A DNA stretch of 39,798 nucleotides, taken from Candidatus Levyibacteriota bacterium (GTDB lineage: Bacteria > Patescibacteriota > Microgenomatia > Levybacterales > UBA12049). The notes beneath the pieces were generated by a model, which did no database searches, was not told the origin of the DNA, and saw only the letters and a program-made list of their open reading frames with translations. Positions 9 to 15,757 of this stretch are shown here, piece by piece. How positions within the stretch are numbered: position 1 is the first letter of the stretch; each line of letters opens with the position of its first letter. Location of the stretch: contig JACPGP010000033.1 of the NCBI GenBank assembly GCA_016182425.1, positions 1-39,798 on the forward strand. The letters run 5' to 3'. The translations under genes were made by a program, and so were the position numbers.

Positions 9-878
9 ATGCTTGGAGGATTCACTCCCGTAATGATTAAATTCGGAGTAAGAGAGTTTCCTCCTTTACTTCTTACAACGCTTCGATTTTTGGTTGCGAG
101 TATTGTTTTTTATCCTTTTTTCTTCAGATATCAGAGGAACCTAGCGCGTCATGATATTTGGTTTCTTTTTACAAGGTCGCTTTTCTTTGCGGGGAATGTG
201 GGATTTTTTAGTGTTGCTATTCAGTACACAACAACAATTGTTTCTCAGTTACTTTATACACTTGTGCCAGTAATTGTATTGTTGATGAGTAGGTTTCTCT
301 TTAAAGAGACAATGACAATGCAAAAAATTGCAGGATTAATTATAGCATCATTTGGCGTTGGGTTAATTTTAAAAGAATCTATTGTTAAGACAGAAATTCT
401 GGCTTTTGGTACACCTTTAGGGAACTTATTAACTCTTATTGCAGTATTTTCATGGGCTTTTTATGTGCTTGTTTCAAAAGATCTTACCAAAAAATATAGT
501 CCGGTGGTAACTAGTTTTTCCAGTTTTGTTACCACAGTAGTTGTTCTTCTTTTTTTACTTCCTTTTGAGGGAAGTGTAAGATCTTTTCAGATATACGATG
601 TAACTACAACAGGAATATTAAGTATTTTTGGCCTAGGTATATTTTCTTCTGCATTAATGTTTTTTCTTATCCAGTTTGTTATTAAAAAAACAAGCCCGTT
701 TACTGCATCTTTGCATCAATATATAGGCCCATTTTCAAGTGGGGTTATCTCGGTGCCAATTTTAGGTGAAAAGCCAACGCCGATACTTTTTGTTTCTGGC
801 TTATGTATTATTTTTGGCGTTTTGCTTGCAACGGCATATGAGCATCTAAGAAAACAGTTCAAATCCGTGCTACAATAG
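9..878 (+). CDS. EamA/DMT family transporter (probably 5'-incomplete at the window edge)
   Basis: About 10 hydrophobic segments in two repeats. Motifs such as PPLLLTTLRF and GEKPT..L..G. The frame stays open upstream of the ATG to the window start. Confidence 0.85.
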   Translation: MLGGFTPVMIKFGVREFPPLLLTTLRFLVASIVFYPFFFRYQRNLARHDIWFLFTRSLFFAGNVGFFSVAIQYTTTIVSQLLYTLVPVIVLLMSRFLFKETMTMQKIAGLIIASFGVGLILKESIVKTEILAFGTPLGNLLTLIAVFSWAFYVLVSKDLTKKYSPVVTSFSSFVTTVVVLLFLLPFEGSVRSFQIYDVTTTGILSIFGLGIFSSALMFFLIQFVIKKTSPFTASLHQYIGPFSSGVISVPILGEKPTPILFVSGLCIIFGVLLATAYEHLRKQFKSVLQ

Positions 879-883
879 GCTTT

Positions 884-1327
884 ATGCGGGAGGTGGAGTT
901 TGCTGAGCAAACGTGGGACAAGAGAAAAATTCTTATGGCAGTAATTGCCCTTTTTTTTCTGTCAGGAGTAGCATATGCTGCCAAGACCTATGTTTTTGAT
1001 GCTAAGGAAACAAAATTCCCCAAAAAAGTATCAACAAAATCTTCAGAGTCAGTTGCGGGGATAACTACCGGAGAGGAGAACAACGAATCTTCATCTTCCT
1101 CATCGGATGAAAATAAAGATCCGTTTCCTTTTTCTCCTTCGGTAATTCGGCAGGATGCGCAGCAAAAATTTGAAGAAATAAAAAATCAAGTGACAAATTT
1201 AACAGTAGACGATGTGGCTTCCGCATCTCCGCAAATACAAAAAGTTATTAACGACCTAAAAGCGTTAGAGCAGTACCCAAAATCTCAGGCCAAACAAATG
1301 TGCGAGAATATTTGTAAAAGCCTATGA
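884..1327 (+). CDS. Hypothetical membrane-anchored protein
   Basis: 147-aa ORF with one N-terminal TM helix, a Ser-rich linker and a helical C-terminus. Its stop overlaps the next start. Confidence 0.7.
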   Translation: MREVEFAEQTWDKRKILMAVIALFFLSGVAYAAKTYVFDAKETKFPKKVSTKSSESVAGITTGEENNESSSSSSDENKDPFPFSPSVIRQDAQQKFEEIKNQVTNLTVDDVASASPQIQKVINDLKALEQYPKSQAKQMCENICKSL

Positions 1328-2583
1328 AGTTTGTAAAAAAGATTATTAAAATTTTAGGCCCTGGGTTTATTACTGGAGCATCGGATGATGATCCGTCGGG
1401 CATTGCCACCTATTCCCAAACTGGCGCCCTGTTTGGATTTTCACAATTGTGGACGGCGCCATTTTCGTTTCCGTTGATGGTAGCGGCGCAGGAGATGTGC
1501 GGAAGAATCGGACTTGTGACAGGCAGAGGACTGGCTGGAGTTATACGGCAGTATTACACAAAAAAAGTTTTATATGGAGCAGTTTTACTCCTTTTTGTGG
1601 CAAATACCATTAACATTGGCGCAGATTTAGGCGCCATGGCAGCATCCCTGCAGCTTATTTTAGGTTTGCCATTTTGGATGCTACTTATTAGTATAGCAGT
1701 AATAACATTGTGTTTAGAAGTTTTTATTTCATACAAAACGTACGCACAATACTTAAAATACCTTACATTTGCTCTGTTTTCATACTTTTTTGTGGTACTT
1801 ACAATTCATATTAATTGGAAGGAGGTTTTCTCCTCAACGGTTTTTCCCACAGTCCAATTCACTAAAGATTATCTTTTGAATATTGTGGCAATTTTGGGAA
1901 CAACAATTTCTCCTTATCTTTTCTTTTGGCAAGCATCAGAAGAAGTGGAAGAGGAGGTTGCACATCATAAGTTGCGGCAAATGGGAGCTGGGCAGCCAAA
2001 AGTTACGCCAAAAGATATATCCAGGCTTCGAATGGACACGATTATAGGGATGTTTTTTTCAAATCTTGTCATGTGGTTTATTATTATTGCCACTGGCGCA
2101 ACATTGTTTACGCAGGGCATAAAAACCATACAAACAGCATCGGATGCGGCTTTAGCGTTGCGGCCTATAGCTTCGGATTTTGCCTTTTTGCTTTTTGCAT
2201 TAGGTATTATTGGTACAGGGTTTTTGGCAGTTCCAATTTTAGCAGGATCGGCATCTTACGCTGTTTCCGAAGCATTTGGATGGAAGGCAGGGTTATATAG
2301 AACACCAAAGACCGCACCGCAATTTTACTTAGTTATTGTTATTGCGACTGTAATTGGTATTACTATTAATTTTATTGGCATAAGCCCATTTTCAGCACTT
2401 TACTACACAGCTGTATTAAATGGCATTGTCGCGCCTCCACTCCTTTTTATTATTCTTATTATCGCCAATAACAAAGAAATTATGGGAAATAGGGTGAATA
2501 ATAGATTATTAAATATTATTGGTATAGTAACAATTATTATTATGGCAATTTCTGCAATTGGATTGCTTCTGACATTTCTTTAA
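1324..2583 (+). CDS. NRAMP-family divalent metal cation transporter
   Basis: [25 protein letters not shown] and [12 protein letters not shown] motifs; about 11 TM helices. Confidence 0.9.
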
Positions 2584-2591
2584 TAACACAT

Positions 2592-3605
2592 ATGGAAGAA
2601 CTAAAAGAAAAAGTTAAAAAATTTTTAGAAAAAGTAGATATAGAGGAGAAAAAGCGCCAAATCCGTGAAATTGAAGAGATGAGTGCTAAAGCAACATTTT
2701 GGCAAGACCACCTTAGAGCAGGCAAGAAAATGAAAATGTTATCTGATTTACAAAAAGAAGTTGAGGAATTAGATTGGCTTGCGGAGCTTGTTAAACATGG
2801 CGAATATAAAGAAGCAGAAAAATTACTTCATAAACTAGAGACCATCCTGTATTTTTCCAATCCCCATGATAAGGGCGCAGCTATTCTTTCTATTCATTCT
2901 GGACAAGGAGGGGTTGAAGCAATGGACTTTGCGCAGATGCTCTATCGAATGTATACGCGATTTTGCGAAAAAAAGGGATGGTCGTACGAAATTATAGAAG
3001 AAACATTGGGCGAGGAAGCAGGAATAAAAGAAGTAACGCTTTCTATTGACGGCAAGTATGTGTATGGTTTTCTTAAATGGGAGCAGGGCGTGCATAGGCT
3101 TGTTCGTCAATCTCCTTTTAATGCCGATAAGTTACGTCAAACATCTTTTGCTTTAATTGAAGTATTGCCAGCAATAGAGGATGAGAAGGAAATAATAATT
3201 CTAGATGATGATTTAGAATGGGAGTTTTTTCGAAGTGGGGGCAAAGGTGGACAAAATGTTAATAAAGTATCAACTGCAGTGCGTCTTAGGCACAAACCAA
3301 CAGGCATTGTGGTTACTGCGCAGAAAGAGCGATATCAGGGGCAAAATAGAGAAAATGCCCTGCGGATTTTGCGAGCAAAATTGTGGATGTTTGAAGAAGA
3401 AGAACGAAAAAAAGAGGAGCAAAAATTAAAAGGCGGGTATAAAACGCCAGGATGGGGAAATCAGATTCGATCCTACGTTTTGCATCCTTACCATATGGTA
3501 AAGGACTTGCGGACCAATTTTGAAACATCAGATACAGACGCGGTGTTAAATGGCGAACTCGAAGGGTTTATAGAAGAAGAATTGCGCCAGTTGTCAAATG
3601 TATAA
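2592..3605 (+). CDS. prfB: Peptide chain release factor 2
   Basis: SPF anticodon-mimic motif (RQSPF), [23 protein letters not shown]. Confidence 0.97.
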
Positions 3606-3645
3606 AAATGTGGTTTACTAGAGTAAGTGGAGGAGGTGAGGAAAC

Positions 3646-4104
3646 GTGGAGAATCAAAAAGAAAAAAAAGAAGAGATGCTCCATGGGTTTGACCAAAAGG
3701 AAATGTCTACTATATTTTCTACAAAATTTATTATCGCCCTAATTATGATAGCCATTTTCGGAGTGGGCAGTGGTTATCTGCTTGCCAAGAATGACACCAG
3801 CGTGTCGAGTGTTGGTATGCTGGATAATGATTCTTCGATTGAGGTTGGAACAGTTGTTGGGTCAAGCGACACAAAAACGTTTAGGGATTCTGCGGAGGGT
3901 GTTTTAGAAGAAGGCGGTATCGAAGGAGAAGGGCAATATCATTTAGTACGTCCAGGCGGGGATAGTCAAAACGTGTATCTTACCTCTTCCGTTATTGACC
4001 TCTCTATATTTATACAAAGAAAGGTAAAGGTTTGGGGAGAAACAAACGCCGCCAAGAGTGCCGGCTGGCTGATGGATGTTGGAAAAGTAGAAGTATTAGA
4101 GTAA
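3646..4104 (+). CDS. Hypothetical membrane-anchored protein, beta-rich (OB-fold-like) C-terminus
   Basis: GTG start with a strong GGAGGTGA SD; a single TM helix, then a glycine-rich beta domain. Confidence 0.75.
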   Translation: MENQKEKKEEMLHGFDQKEMSTIFSTKFIIALIMIAIFGVGSGYLLAKNDTSVSSVGMLDNDSSIEVGTVVGSSDTKTFRDSAEGVLEEGGIEGEGQYHLVRPGGDSQNVYLTSSVIDLSIFIQRKVKVWGETNAAKSAGWLMDVGKVEVLE

Positions 4105-4117
4105 TTTAATTTGTCCT

Positions 4118-4801
4118 ATGATAAAGCTTGATAAGGTTTCCAAAACATTCATTCTTGGTTCCTCTGGTCTTGTCGATATTACCCTGGTCATAGATAAAGG
4201 CGAGTTTGTCTTTTTAGTTGGCCCGACAGGATCGGGTAAAACAACGATTTTTCGGCTCTTAATCCGCGATATGCTTCCATCAAAGGGAACGATTATTGTA
4301 GGAGATTTTGATATTGTGAAACTCCCTCATCACAAAGTGCCACATTTACGAAAAAAAATCGGTGTGGTGTTTCAGGATCTAAAGCTGTTAATGGATAGGA
4401 CTATATTTGAAAATGTGGTGTTGCCTTTGGAAGTTTCTGGTGTAAAACCAGAGGAAGCAAAAAAAAGAGTTGAAGCAGTATTAACCCAGGTGGGAATTTT
4501 GGAGCATTACAATAAGTTTCCCATACAGCTTTCGGGAGGGGAGCGTCAAAGAGCGGCAATTGCGCGAGCACTGGTATTTTCCCCAGACCTGCTTTTAGCA
4601 GATGAGCCGACTGGCAATTTAGACCCATCAACCGGTCGTGATATCGTGAATCTTCTTTTGGGAATCAACGAAAAAGGCACAACCGTGGTGATGGCTACCC
4701 ATAATATAGACATTGTTAATAATCTACAGAAGCGTGTTGTTGCGTTGGATAAAGGGAGAGTAATTCGAGATCAGAAGAAAGGGAAATATGCGACATCTTA
4801 A
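4118..4801 (+). CDS. ftsE: Cell division ATP-binding protein FtsE
   Basis: Walker A GPTGSGKT, LSGGERQR signature, LADEPTGNLD, LRKKIGVVFQD; adjacent to ftsX. Confidence 0.95.
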   Translation: MIKLDKVSKTFILGSSGLVDITLVIDKGEFVFLVGPTGSGKTTIFRLLIRDMLPSKGTIIVGDFDIVKLPHHKVPHLRKKIGVVFQDLKLLMDRTIFENVVLPLEVSGVKPEEAKKRVEAVLTQVGILEHYNKFPIQLSGGERQRAAIARALVFSPDLLLADEPTGNLDPSTGRDIVNLLLGINEKGTTVVMATHNIDIVNNLQKRVVALDKGRVIRDQKKGKYATS

Positions 4802-11371: not shown

Positions 11372-12379
11372 ATGAAATTACTAGTGACAGGAGGGGCAGG
11401 GTTTATTGGCTCCAATTTTATTCTCTACTGGCTCAAACATTATCCACAAGATTCGGTTGTTAATTTCGATAAACTAACCTACGCTGGGAATTTGGAGAAT
11501 CTTAAAGAGGTTGAGAATAATTCTCATTACAAATTTATCCAGGGAGATATTTGTGATGCAGAATCAGTAAATGTTGCAATGCAAAATATTGATGCTGTGG
11601 TGCATTTTGCAGCCGAGAGTCATGTTGACAGATCAATTCTTGAGCCAGCTCCTTTTGTTATGACAAATGTTGTTGGTACACAAGTGCTTTTAGATAGCGC
11701 TGTTAAAAATCGAGTAAAAAAATTACACCATGTGTCTACAGATGAGGTATTTGGAAGTCTATCTCTAGAGGATACGAATAAATTTAATGAACGAACACTT
11801 AATAACCCCAGAAGTCCTTATGCGGCAAGTAAAGCAGGATCAGATCATTTGGTGCGAGCGTACCATACCACATATGGTTTGCCTATTACAATTACCAACT
11901 GTTCAAACAATTTTGGCCCTTATCAGTTTCCAGAAAAACTTATTCCTTTGGCAATTACGAATCTTTTAGAGGGTAAAAAAGTGCCGGTATACGGAGATGG
12001 ACTATATGTACGAGATTGGCTATATGTTGAAGATCACTGTCGTGCGATTGATATAGTTTTACAAAAAGGACGAGTTGGCGAAACATACTGTGTTGGCGGT
12101 CTAACAGAGGATATTAATAACCTGGCAATTATAAAGAAAATTTTGTCTCTTCTTGGAAAAGGTGAAGAGTTCATAGAATTTGTCAAAGATAGACCAGGAC
12201 ACGATAGAAGGTATGCAATTGATTGGTCAAAGATAAAAAATGAGCTGGGATGGCAGCCTCGGCATTCGTTCGATGAGTATCTTTTGAAGACTGTGGAATG
12301 GTACAAAACTCACGAAAGTTGGTGGAAGCACGTTAAAAGTGGCGAGTATCAGAAGTACTACTCAAGACAGTATGATTGA
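11372..12379 (+). CDS. rfbB: dTDP-glucose 4,6-dehydratase
   Basis: LVTGGAGFIGSNF, DKLTYAGN, HFAAESHVDRSI, YAASK, DRPGHDRRYA. Start set at the ATG at 11372. Confidence 0.96.
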   Translation: MKLLVTGGAGFIGSNFILYWLKHYPQDSVVNFDKLTYAGNLENLKEVENNSHYKFIQGDICDAESVNVAMQNIDAVVHFAAESHVDRSILEPAPFVMTNVVGTQVLLDSAVKNRVKKLHHVSTDEVFGSLSLEDTNKFNERTLNNPRSPYAASKAGSDHLVRAYHTTYGLPITITNCSNNFGPYQFPEKLIPLAITNLLEGKKVPVYGDGLYVRDWLYVEDHCRAIDIVLQKGRVGETYCVGGLTEDINNLAIIKKILSLLGKGEEFIEFVKDRPGHDRRYAIDWSKIKNELGWQPRHSFDEYLLKTVEWYKTHESWWKHVKSGEYQKYYSRQYD

Positions 12380-12500
12380 CTTAACTTACCAAATTACCCT
12401 AGCACAACCCCCTTTTTTCTTAGCTGTGATTGCTGTGGCTGTTGTTTACTATGTTTTTGGTAAAAAATCCCCCGCTTGTCAAATTGCACGCATTTTTTAA
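12372..12500 (+). CDS. Putative 42-aa single-TM small protein (below the ORF-track cutoff)
   Basis: MIDLTYQITLAQPPFFLAVIAVAVVYYVFGKKSPACQIARIF*. The ATG overlaps the end of rfbB; a TM helix is followed by KK. The last codons come from the inverted repeat. Confidence 0.5.
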   Translation: MIDLTYQITLAQPPFFLAVIAVAVVYYVFGKKSPACQIARIF

Positions 12501-12514
12501 CCAAAATTTTGCAA
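12476..12514 (-). repeat. Left 39-bp inverted repeat (site A)
   Basis: ttgtcaaattgcacgcattttttaaccaaaattttgcaa. Confidence 0.95.
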
Positions 12515-12585
12515 AAAATGAAAGATTAAAAGTAGATTTTAGATCACTATTATAGTCTAAAGTAGTAATTATACCAGTGAAAAAT

Positions 12586-12623
12586 TTGCAAAATTTTATA
12601 CCTTTTTTTATTGCAATTTGACA
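12586..12623 (+). repeat. Internal copy of the two-arm site (site B)
   Basis: TTGCAAAATTTT-N14-TGCAATTTGACA. Arms and spacing are identical to sites A and C; the spacer sequence differs. Confidence 0.85.
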
Positions 12624-12758
12624 CTATGTGTAAGGTTTATACGAAATATATAGATATGTTTAATAAAAACTGTTGATTTTAAGCCTAAGATTATACGTTT
12701 TATTAAAGGTCTTCTAAACTTTTTGATTAAAACTTACATCCGAGAGAGGCCATCGAAT

Positions 12759-13301
12759 ATGAGCAAGGAGATACCACAATCACAACCGGATTTACCACGC
12801 CCTGGCGATGGCCAGGGCTTCCAGGCGCCCAGCCCAGTCCGACCCTCAGAGCTGCACCCTTTCCAGGGGGGCATGCCCCCTATCCCGCCAGTGGGAGACC
12901 CGCCGACATGTACTCCCAATAGACCAGAGTTCCACCAGCCACGCAGTGAGCTGCCCCCACCAGAACCGCCATTACCCCACCCTGCACATGGTCTAGGCTA
13001 CTCCCCGACGGCCGAAGAAGTCGCCAGGCTGGAGGAGCTGGAGTTGCGGCGCAGAGCGCAAAACCGAGAGCGGCAACGCTGCTGGCGGCAACGTCACCCC
13101 GATAAACACAGCGAAAACAAGAGGAAGTGGCGCGAGCGCCATGCTGCTCAAATTGCTCAACACAGGGCTGCGTATGATAAGAAGTACAATAGCAAGCCCG
13201 AAGTGAAAGAGCGTAAGGCTAGGCAAGCCCGAGAGCGGTACGCACGGAAAAGCGCAGCCTCGGCCCACTCCTCACTCGAAAAAGTCTCGCCAGGGGCGTA
13301 A
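12759..13301 (+). CDS. Orphan protein: Pro-rich disordered N-terminus, Arg/Lys-rich helical C-terminus (possible nucleic-acid binder)
   Basis: GC-rich ORF; the ATG at 12759 has an upstream GAGAGAGG. C-terminal RRRAQNRERQRCWRQRHPDKHSENKRKWRERH. Confidence 0.65.
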   Translation: MSKEIPQSQPDLPRPGDGQGFQAPSPVRPSELHPFQGGMPPIPPVGDPPTCTPNRPEFHQPRSELPPPEPPLPHPAHGLGYSPTAEEVARLEELELRRRAQNRERQRCWRQRHPDKHSENKRKWRERHAAQIAQHRAAYDKKYNSKPEVKERKARQARERYARKSAASAHSSLEKVSPGA

Positions 13302-13396
13302 CGTGACGGCGGTTCCCGTGTTATATTCTATACACTGTAGTATAACTTAATACCGGGCAGACAACCGGAAACCCCCGCGCTTGTGTGTGTAAGATT

Positions 13397-13588
13397 TCAG
13401 TCAAAATTTGAGGTATTTTTCAATGTTTTGAGGCTAGAACATTGAAAGATAGAGTATAATAACATTGAAATCTTACACTCAAAGGGGATATTCGCCTCTG
13501 GCCAGTCGGTATCCTGTGGTAGATGACGGTAACGTCGCGCAAACATGTCCAGAGGGTATATAAAACTCTGTTCATAGGGGGTTGTCAT
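13397..13588 (-). CDS. Hypothetical small ORF or degraded gene
   Basis: 63-aa ORF starting 17 nt after the stop of the 159-aa ORF; weak SD; composition changes halfway along. Confidence 0.3.
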   Translation of the reverse strand: MTTPYEQSFIYPLDMFARRYRHLPQDTDWPEANIPFECKISMLLYSIFQCSSLKTLKNTSNFD

Positions 13589-13605
13589 CTGTTATCGTAT
13601 CCAAA

Positions 13606-14085
13606 TTACCGATGAGGGAGAAAGCCTCCGTCCCAGAGGAGTTCCGGTTGCAGGTTTCTGTCACCATTACCATATCGGAGCTTAATATCGTTCCTGGCAG
13701 CTTCGACCAAATCTACATCCTCCCCGTGGCAGCCCTGATAGAGGTCTACAAAGACCTTCTTCGGCCGGAGAGCTAGAGACAGTTCAACAAATATCGGACC
13801 GATAGCATCTGCCTTAGGGCTGCGGCGCTCCTGTGATGCAGGCGGACGCTCCTCCAGATAAATAACACGGCGTTCACGCCCTAACTCATCTTCGGCATCC
13901 AAGATACCCATCCACGAGTATCGTCCTGACGAATATACTGCGTAAAACAGGCCTTGCCAGAGGGCGTTAATACGCTCGTCCCGGCCGGGGAAGTTTGCTT
14001 TCAGAACATCGGCAAGGGGAGGAGGTGGTTTGATACCTATATTATTTTCGGTAGCAAACATGGGAAGTTCGTGACGCGGTACCAT
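13606..14085 (-). CDS. Orphan hypothetical protein
   Basis: 159-aa ORF with a GGAGGA SD 5 nt upstream and a canonical promoter. Confidence 0.7.
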   Translation of the reverse strand: MVPRHELPMFATENNIGIKPPPPLADVLKANFPGRDERINALWQGLFYAVYSSGRYSWMGILDAEDELGRERRVIYLEERPPASQERRSPKADAIGPIFVELSLALRPKKVFVDLYQGCHGEDVDLVEAARNDIKLRYGNGDRNLQPELLWDGGFLPHR

Positions 14086-14102
14086 TATATTCCTCCGTGT
14101 TG

Positions 14103-14131
14103 ATTATTTCATAGCTGTTGCTTGATGTCAA
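14103..14131 (-). promoter_or_regulatory. Sigma70-type promoter for the 13606-14085 ORF
   Basis: Minus strand TTGACA-17nt-AATAAT, then GGAGGA and ATG. The -35 lies inside the palindrome gcttga-tg-tcaagc (14120-14133). Confidence 0.65.
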
Positions 14132-14340
14132 GCCGGTTCGCAAGCCCACTCATAACACCAAGCGCGCTGGCCTATTACAGACAATCGGTCGGACGGAAGA
14201 CCCCTTAACGCTATCGACCACAACGGACTTGGAGGTTGCTTGCACACCATCTTGAATCGTTCGGCTCTGCCGGTGGCCCCTTGCTGTAGATGCTGGAGGC
14301 CCCGGAATAACCGAAACGCAGTCCACGGGAGGATGTCAAA

Positions 14341-14379
14341 TTGCAAAATTTTGGTTAAAAAATGCGTGCAATTTGACAA
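14341..14379 (+). repeat. Right 39-bp inverted repeat (site C)
   Basis: ttgcaaaattttggttaaaaaatgcgtgcaatttgacaa. It also forms a 12-bp IR (tgtcaaattgca 14334-14345 / tgcaatttgaca 14367-14378). Confidence 0.95.
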
Positions 14380-14449
14380 ATAATACTATTTTTGTCAGAA
14401 GCGTGAACTGTTACTGGCTTAGAGTGCCCTTCCGTTTTTCCTTATGGCA

Positions 14450-14458
14450 TGTTAGAAT
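14450..14458 (+). promoter_or_regulatory. Extended -10 promoter element for ugd
   Basis: TGTTAGAAT, 9 nt upstream of the ATG at 14468. Confidence 0.5.
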
Positions 14459-14467
14459 AAGATTCTT

Positions 14468-15757
14468 ATGACGATAACATTTGTGGGGCATGGATATGTT
14501 GGGCTTGTGTCTGCCTCGATTTTTGCGGAGTTGGGCAATACGGTTTGGGTTATTGGACATACTTCTGAAAAAATCGAAAACCTCAAAAAAGGGATCATTC
14601 CCATCTACGAACCAGGACTTGAGGAAATAGTTAAAAGAAACGTTAAGGCAAAGCGTTTGCTGTTTACTCTTTCCTACAAAGAAGCAATACCCGCGTCAGA
14701 CGCGGTTTTTATTGCTGTAGGTACGCCTCCGAAGAAAAACGGCGAAGCAGATCTTTCGGTTGTTTTTGCAGTGGCAGAAAAGATTGGGAGAAATCTTGAT
14801 GGGTATACAGTTGTTGTAACAAAAAGCACAGTACCAGTTGGGACAAATTTTGAAGTTAAAAAAATTATTGAAAAAGTTTTGCCACAGAAAGCCACGTTTG
14901 ATGTAGCCTCAACACCAGAATTTTTGCGCGAAGGCCAGGCCATTTCCGATACACTGCATCCAGATAGAATTGTAATTGGCACAGAAACAAAACGAGCAGA
15001 GGAAAAACTGGTCGAGCTTCATAAACCAATTGATGGAACCATGGTCCTTACCACTATTCCAACTGCTGAAATGATAAAGTATGCGGCAAATGCTTTTTTA
15101 GCCACAAAAATTTCGTTTGCCAACGCCATCGCGCAGCTTTGTGAAGTAACAGGAGCAGATGCTTTAGGGGTACTGGAGGGAATTGGTTTGGATAGCCGGA
15201 TTGGCAAGTCATTCCTTTCTCCAGGGCCAGGGTATGGCGGAAGTTGTTTCCCCAAAGATGTTAAAGCGCTTATTGCCATAGCAAAACAACATGGGTACAA
15301 GTTTTTGCTTCTTAAGGATGTTGAGGCGATTAACGCTCAGGCGATGGAAGGGATTGTATACAAAGCGAAAAAACTGCTTAAAAATCTTAAGGGAAAAACA
15401 ATTGGAATTTTGGGCCTTTCATTTAAGCCGGATACCGATGATATGCGAGATGCCCCTTCGATTGTTATTATCAATCAATTACAAACAATGGGAGCAAAGA
15501 TGAAGGTGTACGATCCGATTGCGATGGATAATGCGAAGAAAATCTTAAAACATGTTATTTTTTGCAGCGATTCCTACGAGGCCGCTAAAGATACAGATTT
15601 GCTTATTGTTATTACAGAATGGAATGAATTTCGACAGCTTAACTTAGGTAAAATAAAAGAATATATGAGGCAACCAGTTCTTATTGACGGAAGAAATATT
15701 TACGATCCTAATGTTGTACAAAGGCTTGGTTTTATCTATAGAGGGGTGGGAAGATAG
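14468..15757 (+). CDS. ugd: UDP-glucose/GDP-mannose 6-dehydrogenase
   Basis: VGHGYVG, IAVGTP, KSTVPVGT, PEFLREG, GYGGSCFPKD, FKPDTDDMR. Confidence 0.95.
   Translation: MTITFVGHGYVGLVSASIFAELGNTVWVIGHTSEKIENLKKGIIPIYEPGLEEIVKRNVKAKRLLFTLSYKEAIPASDAVFIAVGTPPKKNGEADLSVVFAVAEKIGRNLDGYTVVVTKSTVPVGTNFEVKKIIEKVLPQKATFDVASTPEFLREGQAISDTLHPDRIVIGTETKRAEEKLVELHKPIDGTMVLTTIPTAEMIKYAANAFLATKISFANAIAQLCEVTGADALGVLEGIGLDSRIGKSFLSPGPGYGGSCFPKDVKALIAIAKQHGYKFLLLKDVEAINAQAMEGIVYKAKKLLKNLKGKTIGILGLSFKPDTDDMRDAPSIVIINQLQTMGAKMKVYDPIAMDNAKKILKHVIFCSDSYEAAKDTDLLIVITEWNEFRQLNLGKIKEYMRQPVLIDGRNIYDPNVVQRLGFIYRGVGR

What the first reader, a model, noticed from the sequence alone, without database searches (positions are those of the whole stretch)
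12476..14379. Recombinase-less 1.9-kb cassette with perfect 39-bp inverted repeats splitting the surface-glycan locus
Seen: exact 39-bp IRs (ends TGT...ACA within them), no target-site duplication (ccccgc vs ataata), an AT-rich 250-bp left end, then GC-rich cargo with convergent orphan ORFs. It sits between rfbB and ugd. Known: IR-bounded invertible DNA at polysaccharide loci drives phase variation in Bacteroides, using recombinases encoded elsewhere. Inference: an invertible switch or a trans-mobilised element, possibly an undescribed glycan phase-variation system in a CPR episymbiont. Caveat: ugd has its own extended -10 outside the IR, so inversion may act through read-through, antisense or cargo expression instead.
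Basis: partly seen in the sequence, partly recalled or inferred. Interest (0 to 1): 0.8.

Follow-up and report, generated by a model that had tools for sequence, protein, structure and literature searches.

The report
Hairpin-bounded foreign cassettes splitting glycan operon
About 2 kb of foreign, GC-rich DNA with two small genes has been inserted between two sugar-pathway genes of an ultra-small Levybacteria bacterium. Its perfect 39-base inverted ends are copies of a small DNA hairpin related to the 90-base hairpins that separate swappable gene cassettes elsewhere in this genome, so it looks like a stray piece of an integron-like gene-capture system, not a demonstrated on/off switch for surface sugars.

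Summary
There is an exact 39-bp inverted repeat (12476-12514 / 14341-14379), unique in the genome, with no target duplication, around GC-rich cargo between rfbB and ugd. Three close relatives have rfbB and ugd adjacent, so about 2.04 kb (12380-14424) is a lineage-specific insertion, larger than the IR-bounded part.

The cargo belongs to a cassette system. Its centre holds a 90-nt structured repeat (R90) that also punctuates a five-cassette array on contig C5 and arrays at two fixed hotspots in Daviesbacteria. ORF1 shares a 97%-identical leader, and paralogues, with the C5 cassettes.

Each IR arm is part of a 45-nt hairpin (H). A covariance model built only from R90 aligns H end to end, so H looks like a miniature R90-type site.

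The assembly (88% complete) has no tyrosine, serine or rve/DDE recombinase, only five divergent Y1-HUH (RAYT-like) genes. The ugd promoter is ancestral and lies outside the insert.

My best reading is an ectopic two-cassette fragment of an integron-like, apparently undescribed CPR cassette system, bounded by inverted miniature sites.

The parts
11372..12379 (+). rfbB (dTDP-glucose 4,6-dehydratase), the last gene before the insertion
   Evidence: TIGR01181, 484.8 bits, above the cut-off. In relatives it abuts ugd.
12372..12500 (+). Possible 42-aa membrane peptide ORF. It overlaps the rfbB stop by 8 nt (12372-12379), and its last 8 codons and stop lie in IR-L. With the IR unit removed it would end ...GKKSPA* exactly at the junction.
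   Evidence: Read from the sequence. No homologue in the fetched loci. Whether it is a real gene is unproven.
12380..12475 (.). Left extra segment: inserted DNA outside the IR, absent from relatives
   Evidence: In relatives the rfbB-ugd gap runs from a 4-nt overlap to a 39-nt spacer. No similarity elsewhere.
12476..12514 (+). IR-L, the 39-nt perfect inverted-repeat arm. It equals the first 39 nt of an inverted copy of hairpin H.
12579..12623 (+). H2, a diverged third copy of hairpin H. It has the same 7+12+14+12 layout and is 27/45 identical, with 24 of the matches in two exact 12-nt blocks. With IR-L it forms the 147-nt left module bounded by inverted 12-mers.
   Evidence: Weak R1 hit, 9.3 bits.
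12655..12779 (+). Leader plus start of ORF1, 97% identical to C5:3147-3271, which is the leader of a cassette in the C5 array
12759..13301 (+). ORF1, 180 aa: proline-rich N-terminus and strongly basic C-terminus. GC 0.61 with a coding-like GC1>GC3>GC2 pattern. Its only relatives are two cassette genes on C5.
13388..13477 (+). R90: a 90-nt structured cassette-array repeat with a 12-bp outer stem, 15x15 internal loop, 10-bp inner stem and 16-nt loop
   Evidence: R1, 106.9 bits. DNA fold -20 kcal/mol, z -6.0. Covariation across the family.
13606..14085 (-). ORF2, 159 aa, a member of a sparse family of ~140-aa proteins of unknown function. It is not a recombinase.
   Evidence: 43 homologues. Conserved motifs. 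AF2 pLDDT 86 with no PDB fold match. Homologues are lone genes in housekeeping neighbourhoods.
14103..14131 (-). Near-consensus promoter for ORF2 (TTGACA-17-AATAAT with TG, 11/12)
   Evidence: a consensus match only
14334..14378 (+). H, a 45-nt hairpin (12-bp perfect stem, 21-nt loop), read as a miniature R90-family site. It overlaps IR-R.
   Evidence: DNA fold -13 kcal/mol, z -5.2. R1 aligns it end to end at 23.1 bits, E 0.0016 in 5 kb, with the three arm differences compensated.
14341..14379 (-). IR-R, the 39-nt perfect inverted-repeat arm
14380..14424 (.). Right extra segment: inserted DNA outside the IR
14425..14467 (+). Ancestral rfbB-ugd spacer with the ugd extended -10 (TGTTAGAAT), conserved in relatives (TGCTACAAT)
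   Evidence: Read by eye against L133 and L131 from the sequences printed
14468..15757 (+). ugd (UDP-glucose/nucleotide-sugar dehydrogenase)
   Evidence: TIGR03026, 463.7 bits

Best explanation
The IR-bounded segment is the core of a ~2.04-kb lineage-specific insertion of foreign DNA into the once-contiguous rfbB-ugd junction. It is an ectopic, two-cassette fragment of a cassette-array system that this genome shares with Daviesbacteria. In that system, units of very different GC content are separated by co-oriented 90-nt folded sites (R90). Each unit carries one or a few genes; toxin-antitoxin pairs and GC-rich orphans are common.

Here the order is: inverted H / H2 module, ORF1 cassette, R90, ORF2 cassette (reversed, with its own promoter), H. 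The 39-bp 'terminal inverted repeat' is simply two oppositely oriented copies of H. H is a 45-nt hairpin that keeps the R90 outer stem (with compensated changes) and part of its internal loop.

Inferred, not shown: the unit was placed by structure- or site-directed recombination or transposition at these hairpins, catalysed in trans. The enzyme is unidentified. It could be missing from the bin, acting from another cell or element, or one of the five Y1-HUH paralogues. Today the insert is most likely a passive passenger. It uncouples rfbB from ugd, while ugd is still served by its ancestral promoter just outside the insert.
For: Insertion:
- Three relatives (Ugd ~80% identical) keep the same gene order, with rfbB and ugd overlapping by 4 nt or separated by at most 39 nt.
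- The window has 2088 nt between them.
- The last ~43 nt align with the relatives' spacer and promoter (read by eye).

Link to the cassette system:
- R90 at 13388-13477 scores 106.9 bits.
- There are five more copies on contig C5, co-oriented and 833-1044 nt apart. They separate VapBC, VapBC, a 230-aa gene, a 216-aa gene and ParE/Phd.
- The ORF1 leader is 97% identical to a C5 cassette leader.
- ORF1 is paralogous to the C5 230-aa gene (E 4e-12).

R90 family:
- Nearly every full-length copy is 90 nt, with sharp ends and unrelated flanks.
- 96.7% of cells are paired, and 7 pairs change on both sides, which 0 of 500 shuffles reached.
- The copies are co-oriented within each array in several CPR genomes, mostly labelled Daviesbacteria.
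- In those genomes they lie at two conserved hotspots, the pcrA...tpiA interval and femAB...'MDL' gene, with different cassettes in each genome.
- There is no target duplication at the repeats.

H as a miniature R90 site:
- The arm 12-mer is 9/12 identical to the R90 arm, with both arms changed together.
- The R90-only model aligns H end to end (23.1 bits, E 0.0016 in 5 kb).
- The only other locus outside the arrays listed in the genome-wide search scored 17.2 bits.
- The exact 12-mer occurs only at the four module ends.

The cargo genes look real and foreign: GC1>GC3>GC2 at 53-61% GC, ORF2 belongs to a conserved family, and ORF2 has its own promoter.
Against: - No event has been observed. I found no empty-site allele of this strain, no excised circle, and no second copy of H or of the 39-mer anywhere.
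- On a genome-wide scale the H score is not significant on its own: similar scores had E 0.15-0.64.
- Array sites are co-oriented, whereas here the left copy is inverted. Simple cassette insertion does not predict this.
- The perfect 39/39 identity, beside a badly diverged H2, needs a recent duplication, gene conversion or ongoing recombination.
- No recombinase is linked to R90 arrays. In at least five array-bearing genomes whose array contig could be matched, every tyrosine-recombinase hit lies on another contig.
- The IS21-like istAB at some array ends is often decayed and also occurs in genomes without R90.
- DNA outside the IRs was also inserted, so the IRs need not mark the ends of the mobile unit.
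Confidence: 0.5

Rival explanations
1. Invertible segment (inverton or shufflon-like). The two 39-bp arms are recombination sites, and flipping the 1.8-kb segment changes expression of the cargo or of the glycan genes, giving phase variation.
For: - The inverted repeats are perfect, with no target duplication, inside a surface-glycan operon.
- Perfect arm identity beside a diverged third copy is what ongoing recombination between the arms would maintain.
- 39 bp of identity might also allow rare RecA-dependent inversion (my own knowledge).
- The sites resemble those of a recombination-type cassette system.
Against: - No tyrosine, serine or rve recombinase in the assembly.
- ugd keeps its ancestral promoter outside the insert.
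- No convincing outward promoter at either end in either orientation.
- From my own knowledge, promoter invertons are usually a few hundred bp. This segment is 1.8 kb and carries two self-contained foreign genes.
- The original assembly gives one orientation.
Confidence: 0.12
2. Non-autonomous transposon. The 39-bp arms are terminal inverted repeats of a cargo-carrying, MITE-like or composite element, mobilised in trans by a DDE transposase (for example IS21-like IstAB) or by a Y1-HUH transposase that acts on the end hairpins. It picked up a fragment of an R90 array.
For: - Perfect TIRs ending TGT...ACA.
- Each end is itself a small palindromic module with 12-bp inverted termini.
- The interior looks like a captured array fragment: a cassette, R90, a cassette, and a possible R90-arm remnant at 12627-12647 (14/21, read by eye from the sequences).
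- All other R90 copies seen in the fetched loci lie at two hotspots, so this ectopic site suggests a different route.
- Five Y1-HUH genes are present, and HUH transposition leaves no target duplication.
- IS21-like genes sit at R90 array ends in 5 of 13 genomes searched, nearly all of which carry full-length R90.
Against: - Single copy, with no target duplication, which argues against DDE transposition.
- No rve or IstA in this genome.
- The Y1 genes are divergent single-copy paralogues with no H-like sequence nearby.
- Inserted DNA extends beyond the IRs.
- No relative of the ends was found in the metagenome scan, and no part of the unit matched phage or plasmid records.
Confidence: 0.2
3. 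Inert relic. The inverted repeat arose from a one-off inverted duplication or rearrangement during or after horizontal acquisition, and it has no present function in mobility or regulation.
For: - The repeat is unique to this strain and single copy.
- No enzyme candidate is linked to it.
- The left module looks rearranged: an inverted H cut after 39 nt, then 64 nt, then the diverged H2.
- The element is identical in contigs from every one of the 16 sequencing runs that returned contigs.
Against: - An old relic is not expected to keep 39/39 identity while a third copy has decayed to 27/45.
- The compensated arm changes relative to R90 suggest the hairpin is maintained.
Confidence: 0.15
4. Assembly artefact or chimera. 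GC-rich DNA from another organism was joined to the CPR contig through shared AT-rich repeats.
For: - The GC jump is sharp.
- The repeat length (39) is close to common assembler k values.
- Logan contigs break at the IR.
Against: - Independent k=31 assemblies from at least 12 runs reproduce flank-to-IR, IR-to-cargo and cargo-IR-ugd paths, all at 100% identity except one contig with a single mismatch.
- The breaks have the exact 30-nt overlaps expected of a true 39-bp inverted repeat.
- Similar GC-rich cassettes sit in AT-rich CPR contigs in several other genomes.
- The ORF1 leader recurs on contig C5.
Confidence: 0.03

Closest known systems
Chromosomal integrons and CALINs (clusters of attC sites lacking an integrase), as defined in Ghaly et al. 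2022, PMC9668308
   Same: - Arrays of co-oriented, imperfectly palindromic sites of ~90 nt, with two stems around an unpaired central region.
- The sites separate unrelated small gene units with differing GC content, many of them toxin-antitoxin pairs.
- The arrays sit at fixed chromosomal positions, and the cassette content differs between genomes.
- No integrase lies beside the array, as in CALINs.
   Different: - The site ends are TGTAAGATTTCA...TGAAATCTTACA, not the RYYYAAC...GTTRRRY boxes.
- The internal loops are sequence-conserved.
- Cassettes face either way and carry their own promoters.
- No IntI was found (this genome has no tyrosine recombinase at all), and no attI or Pc was identified.
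- The unit in the window is bounded by inverted miniature sites, which integron cassettes are not.
Invertible promoters and invertons at polysaccharide loci (Bacteroides fragilis, Mpi and Tsr recombinases; PhaseFinder-type surveys, for example PMC11602134)
   Same: Inverted repeats with no target duplication inside a surface-glycan gene cluster. The recombinase may be encoded elsewhere.
   Different: - The segment is 1.8 kb of foreign genes, not a promoter of a few hundred bp.
- No invertase gene is in the assembly.
- The downstream gene keeps an ancestral promoter outside the repeats.
- No orientation heterogeneity has been shown.
REPINs and RAYTs (REP doublets mobilised by Y1-HUH transposases; Bertels and Rainey 2011, PMC3116915 and PMC3337134)
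   Same: - Short hairpin-forming units.
- The left module is a doublet of inverted H copies separated by a spacer, like a REPIN.
- The genome carries single-copy, divergent Y1-HUH (RAYT-like) genes.
- No target duplications.
   Different: - REP families have tens to hundreds of copies, and copies flank their RAYT gene.
- H has three copies, all in this one insertion and none near a Y1 gene.
- REPINs carry no genes.
MITEs, composite transposons and IS200/IS605-derived palindrome-associated elements
   Same: TIR-like ends (TGT...ACA), hairpin-forming ends, no transposase inside, and passenger genes.
   Different: Single copy, no target duplication, no matching autonomous element, and inserted DNA extending beyond the repeats.

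Membership tests
Integron / CALIN | IntI-type tyrosine recombinase (with the IntI-specific additional domain) next to the array. This defines a complete integron and is absent by definition in a CALIN. | tested here: not met
   No PF00589 hit anywhere in the own genome. In at least five R90-bearing genomes whose array contig could be matched, all PF00589 hits lie on other contigs.
Integron / CALIN | attC sites: an imperfect palindrome with R''/L''...L'/R' boxes (RYYYAAC...GTTRRRY) that folds with an unpaired central spacer | tested here: inconclusive
   The fold architecture is similar: two stems, a 15x15 internal loop, and covariation. The R-box consensus is absent from the conserved ends, read from alignment A2. 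The IntegronFinder attC model was not available.
Integron / CALIN | At least two co-oriented sites delimiting gene cassettes that vary between genomes | tested here: met
   C5 has 5 co-oriented copies. L061 has 5, L044 has 3 and L122 has 5 or more, with different cassettes between the same flanking genes. In the window itself there is R90 plus H on the + strand, but the left site is inverted.
Integron / CALIN | Mostly promoterless cassettes expressed from a common Pc promoter | tested here: not met
   Cassettes lie on both strands. ORF2 has its own near-consensus promoter. Candidate TTGACA -35 boxes lie just before two C5 cassettes (read).
Inverton (phase-variable invertible DNA) | Both orientations present in a population | not testable with these tools
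Logan contigs use k=31, shorter than the 39-bp repeat, so an inversion creates no new words (reasoning applied).
Inverton (phase-variable invertible DNA) | A site-specific invertase (serine or tyrosine recombinase) in the genome | tested here: not met
   No PF00589 or PF00239 hit. The assembly is only 88% complete.
Inverton (phase-variable invertible DNA) | The invertible segment carries a promoter, or a gene part, whose orientation controls a flanking gene | tested here: not met
   The ugd promoter is ancestral and lies outside the insert. The only outward-facing match is weak, 9/12.
IS / MITE / composite transposon | Terminal inverted repeats | tested here: met
   39/39
IS / MITE / composite transposon | Target-site duplication | tested here: not met
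   ccccgc versus ataata
IS / MITE / composite transposon | Several copies, or a matching autonomous element with a transposase | tested here: not met
   Single copy. No rve or IstA. The metagenome scan for H returned only unrelated hairpins. No match to the whole unit in phage or plasmid records.
REPIN / RAYT | Y1-HUH (RAYT) gene in the genome | tested here: met
   Five PF01797 hits, 206-234 aa, 29-50% identical to one another, with HUH and Y motifs.
REPIN / RAYT | Abundant REP family, with copies flanking the RAYT gene | tested here: not met
   The H 12-mer occurs only in this element, and the one-mismatch hits are not near the Y1 genes.

The most novel reading that the evidence does not exclude
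R90 and its miniature H would define an undescribed, integron-analogous gene-capture system of Microgenomates (CPR).
- Folded 90-nt sites at fixed chromosomal hotspots (the 5' side of pcrA, and femAB-'MDL') exchange self-promoted cassettes.
- This happens without an adjacent IntI, using a recombinase that acts in trans. That could be a distant Xer-type enzyme or a Y1-HUH enzyme working on hairpin DNA.
- The inverted H pair in the window would be a functional derivative that lets a two-cassette block invert or move to ectopic sites such as the glycan operon.
Probability: 0.25. Interest if true: 0.8.

Novelty: new variant of a known kind. Interest (0 to 1): 0.55.

Why it matters
CPR bacteria have tiny genomes and are often described as poor in mobile elements. 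This locus shows foreign, GC-rich genes delivered into a core glycan operon. It ties them to a structured-repeat cassette system that recurs at the same two chromosomal hotspots in genomes of another family (mostly labelled Daviesbacteria), and at one of those hotspots (pcrA-tpiA) in this genome, with no integron integrase in sight.

If the sites prove recombinogenic, this would extend integron-like gene capture to a lineage and an enzyme class where it has not been described. It would also give a concrete set of sites (R90 and H) and candidate enzymes to test.

There is no evidence that surface-glycan expression is phase-variable here.

Tried and rejected
Logan contigs support the junction sequences but cannot resolve orientation, because k=31 is shorter than 39.
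- Other copies of the IR or H: none in the own genome or in 60 relatives. A metagenome scan for the paired 12-mers returned only unrelated hairpins with other loops.
- The unit as phage or plasmid DNA: no blastn match. The viral hits to the R90 core pattern were spurious partial matches.
- Known RNA family: no Rfam match to the element or to the C5 array.
- ORF2 as a hidden recombinase: rejected. It belongs to a conserved ~140-aa family with no Pfam hit and no PDB fold match, and its homologues are lone chromosomal genes.
- ORF1: no homologues in 5.8 billion protein clusters, and only a marginal PHROG hit (E 0.003).
- R90 as a MITE derived from the IS21-like element at array ends: considered because the R90 outer arm resembles the sequence at the istB stop (10/15, read by eye). 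Rejected as the main model for three reasons. There are no target duplications. The copies are strictly co-oriented. istA is single-copy, often decayed, absent from most of the R90-bearing genomes searched (8 of 13) and present in genomes without R90.
- R90 as a sigma-70 promoter: no copy has a properly spaced -35/-10 internally. On the reverse strand, however, its end supplies TTGACT 17-18 nt upstream of a TATAAT just outside the last repeat in three CPR loci (L061, L122, L123).
- Analogous long inverted repeats around R90 in eight other loci: none.
Full report
**Observation.**
The window is a whole 39.8-kb contig (C11) of a 797-kb, 38-contig assembly that is 88% complete. Earlier notes of this scan call it Levybacteria, and its closest Ugd homologues come from Levybacteria. 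The two arms 12476-12514 and 14341-14379 are an exact 39-nt inverted repeat, 1826 nt apart. No shuffle produced a match, and these are the only copies in the genome. The flanks show no target duplication. GC falls to 0.225 just inside the left arm, then rises to 0.54-0.66, against 0.35-0.41 outside. Two convergent ORFs fill the cargo. The neighbours are dTDP-glucose 4,6-dehydratase and a nucleotide-sugar dehydrogenase.

**It is an insertion, and larger than the repeat-bounded part.**
Three relatives whose Ugd is about 80% identical keep the same gene order: Sua5/TsaD, CAP, DUF5656, rfbA, a 142-aa gene, rfbB, ugd, epimerases. In them rfbB and ugd overlap by 4 nt or are separated by 9 or 39 nt. 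The window has 2088 nt between the two genes. The last ~43 nt before ugd (14425-14467, with the extended -10 TGTTAGAAT) align with the relatives' spacer (TGCTACAAT). About 2.04 kb (12380-14424) is therefore new in this lineage: the 1904-nt IR-bounded unit plus ~96 nt on the left and ~45 nt on the right. The left extra piece holds a possible 42-aa membrane peptide ORF that overlaps the rfbB stop by 8 nt. Without the IR unit it would end exactly at the junction, which hints at a two-step history, but I found no allele that shows this.

**It is not an assembly artefact.**
Logan contigs from at least 12 runs in two accession series match the window, all at 100% identity except one with a single mismatch. 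They end at the repeat with exactly the 30-nt overlaps expected for k=31. Three contigs run from ORF2 through IR-R into ugd. Because 31 is less than 39, an inversion would create no new words. These contigs therefore support the junction sequences but say nothing about orientation.

**The cargo belongs to a cassette system.**
A search of the genome with the element found its central imperfect palindrome four more times on contig C5, and its ORF1 leader there at 97% identity. C5 carries five co-oriented copies of this repeat, 833-1044 nt apart, between pcrA and tpiA. They separate a GC-rich VapBC pair, an AT-rich VapBC pair, a 230-aa and a 216-aa proline-rich protein, and ParE/Phd. A 70-nt copy of the pcrA/tpiA start region (86% identical) brackets the array. 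ORF1 is paralogous to the 230-aa protein (E 4e-12), which in turn is related to the 216-aa protein. None has homologues elsewhere.

**The repeat (R90).**
- It is 90 nt long in nearly every full-length copy, with sharp ends: TGTAAGATTTCA...TGAAATCTTACA.
- As single-stranded DNA it folds into a 12-bp outer stem, a 15x15 internal loop, a 10-bp inner stem and a 16-nt loop (z -4.6 to -6.1).
- Across 14 distinct copies, 96.7% of cells pair and 7 pairs change on both sides. No shuffle out of 500 reached that.
- A pattern scan of 185,579 species genomes and a covariance-model scan of 401 genomes of the class found it only in Daviesbacteria-type genomes and in this one genome of its own family. Three of the carrier MAGs, 0.6-1.0 Mb in size, are labelled 'Gammaproteobacteria'.
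- In those genomes the copies are co-oriented and lie at two hotspots: the pcrA...tpiA interval, and between a femAB-like gene and a conserved 'MDLxLIISGG' gene. The cassettes differ in each genome: TA pairs, Fic, HicAB and GC-rich orphans.
- No target duplications flank the copies.
- This is the organisation of an integron array or CALIN (PMC9668308), but with different site ends, self-promoted cassettes in both orientations, and no integrase nearby.

**What the 39-bp repeat is.**
The 12-mer TGTCAAATTGCA occurs exactly four times in the genome: 12477+, 12612-, 14334+ and 14367-. On the right it forms a 45-nt hairpin, H (14334-14378, -13 kcal/mol, z -5.2). On the left, IR-L is the first 39 nt of an inverted H. 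After 64 nt comes a diverged third copy, H2 (12579-12623, 27/45 identical, same layout). The H arm differs from the R90 arm at 3 of 12 positions, and all three changes are compensated in the other arm. The covariance model built from R90 copies alone aligns H end to end: the outer stem plus part of the left internal loop, at 23.1 bits and E 0.0016 in a 5-kb search. Genome-wide, that score would correspond to E of roughly 0.2-0.6. The only other locus outside the arrays listed in the genome-wide search scored 17.2 bits. I therefore read H as a miniature R90-family site, and the '39-bp terminal inverted repeat' as two oppositely oriented copies of it. The relation is suggestive, not proven.

**Cargo genes.**
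- Both have coding-type GC profiles at 53-61% GC.
- ORF2 has 43 distant homologues of ~140 aa with conserved motifs and a confident model (pLDDT 86), but no PDB fold match.
- The ORF2 homologues are lone genes near gatCAB or hrcA-grpE.
- ORF2 has its own near-consensus promoter.
- Nothing suggests a recombinase.

**Enzymes.**
The assembly has no Phage_integrase, Resolvase or rve domain and no IstA. It does have five divergent Y1-HUH, RAYT-like genes. Enzymes of this class act on DNA hairpins and leave no target duplication (PMC3116915). No H-like sequence lies near these genes, though. An IS21-like istAB sits at the end of R90 arrays in 5 of 13 genomes searched. It is usually decayed, and it also occurs in genomes without R90, so I treat it as a passenger.

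**Mechanism.**
Shown:
- A lineage-specific insertion of foreign DNA.
- Membership of its centre and of ORF1 in the R90 cassette pool.
- Hairpin modules at both ends.
- No recombinase inside the unit or, among the families tested, in the bin.
- An ancestral ugd promoter outside the insert.

Inferred:
- The unit was placed by hairpin- or site-directed recombination in trans.
- It is now mostly passive: it breaks rfbB-ugd coupling but does not control ugd.

The inverted left site and the perfect arm identity remain unexplained by simple cassette insertion. They keep inversion (0.12) and transposition (0.20) alive as rivals.

**Comparison and novelty.**
The nearest known kinds are CALIN-type integron arrays, invertons, REPIN/RAYT systems and MITE-like transposons. 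Each fails at least one defining test (see the membership table). I found no paper describing integron-like arrays in CPR. Earlier notes of this scan report similar arrays with other site families, and these are unverified leads. I rate this a new variant of a known kind, of moderate interest.

Noticed in passing
own genome contig C5 (L011) 174-4651: A five-cassette array between pcrA and tpiA: VapBC, VapBC, two proline-rich orphans and ParE/Phd, separated by co-oriented R90 repeats. It is bracketed by a 70-nt, 86%-identical duplication of the pcrA/tpiA start region (174-243 and 4582-4651). This looks like the attL/attR of an integrated island.
   Followed up: partly
whole own genome (G000): No tyrosine recombinase at all, not even a Xer type, in an 88%-complete assembly, whereas all nine array-bearing relatives tested have 2-6. 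Either it lies in the missing 12%, or this lineage lacks one.
   Followed up: partly
own genome C2:8363-8983, C34:3645-4331, C8:4-696, C29:7309-7986, C37:14493-15197: Five divergent (29-50% identical) Y1-HUH, RAYT-like transposase genes of 206-234 aa. Their cognate repeats were not identified. They may relate to the GC-rich hairpin elements that earlier notes report in this genome.
   Followed up: partly
L061:4957-6990, L126:1404-3540, L123:3761-5889: In Daviesbacteria-type genomes an IS21-like istA-istB pair follows the last R90 and a TATAAT box, and the istB stop abuts or overlaps the ATG of the next chromosomal gene ('MDL' gene or pcrA). No right IS end is recognisable. The pair looks inserted ORF-precise, like a cassette. 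It is decayed in four of the five genomes that carry it.
   Followed up: partly
L061, L122, L123 (last R90 of each array): On its reverse strand, the end of R90 supplies a TTGACT -35 box 17-18 nt upstream of a TATAAT lying just outside the repeat. The terminal repeat may therefore help drive the adjacent chromosomal gene.
   Followed up: no
L040, L042, L051/L062 (CAYHYM010000010.1, CAZFZP010000003.1, CAZDFU010000009.1): MAGs labelled 'uncultured Gammaproteobacteria' are 0.6-1.0 Mb and carry Daviesbacteria-type loci (femAB, 'MDL' gene, R90 arrays). They are probably mislabelled CPR genomes.
   Followed up: no
own genome C19:1489-2337: Another isolated GC-rich (0.59) gene, for a 282-aa secreted protein, wedged between AT-rich genes and followed by a GC-rich hairpin. 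It has no R90. This is a second foreign single-gene insertion of a different kind.
   Followed up: no
window 13606-14085 and homologues P0123-P0163: The ORF2 family: ~140-aa proteins with the motifs SGRFSWMGLFE...DEL.R.R.V.YL and LALRP..FLDLYY. It has no Pfam family, a confident AF2 model and no PDB fold match. Some homologues lie beside gatCAB.
   Followed up: partly
L063:4393-4680: A Daviesbacteria cassette next to R90 encodes a 95-aa proline-rich protein (PPEPPLRPPGPPLYPPGP). This recalls the proline-rich N-termini of ORF1 and its C5 paralogues, although BLAST detects no homology.
   Followed up: no
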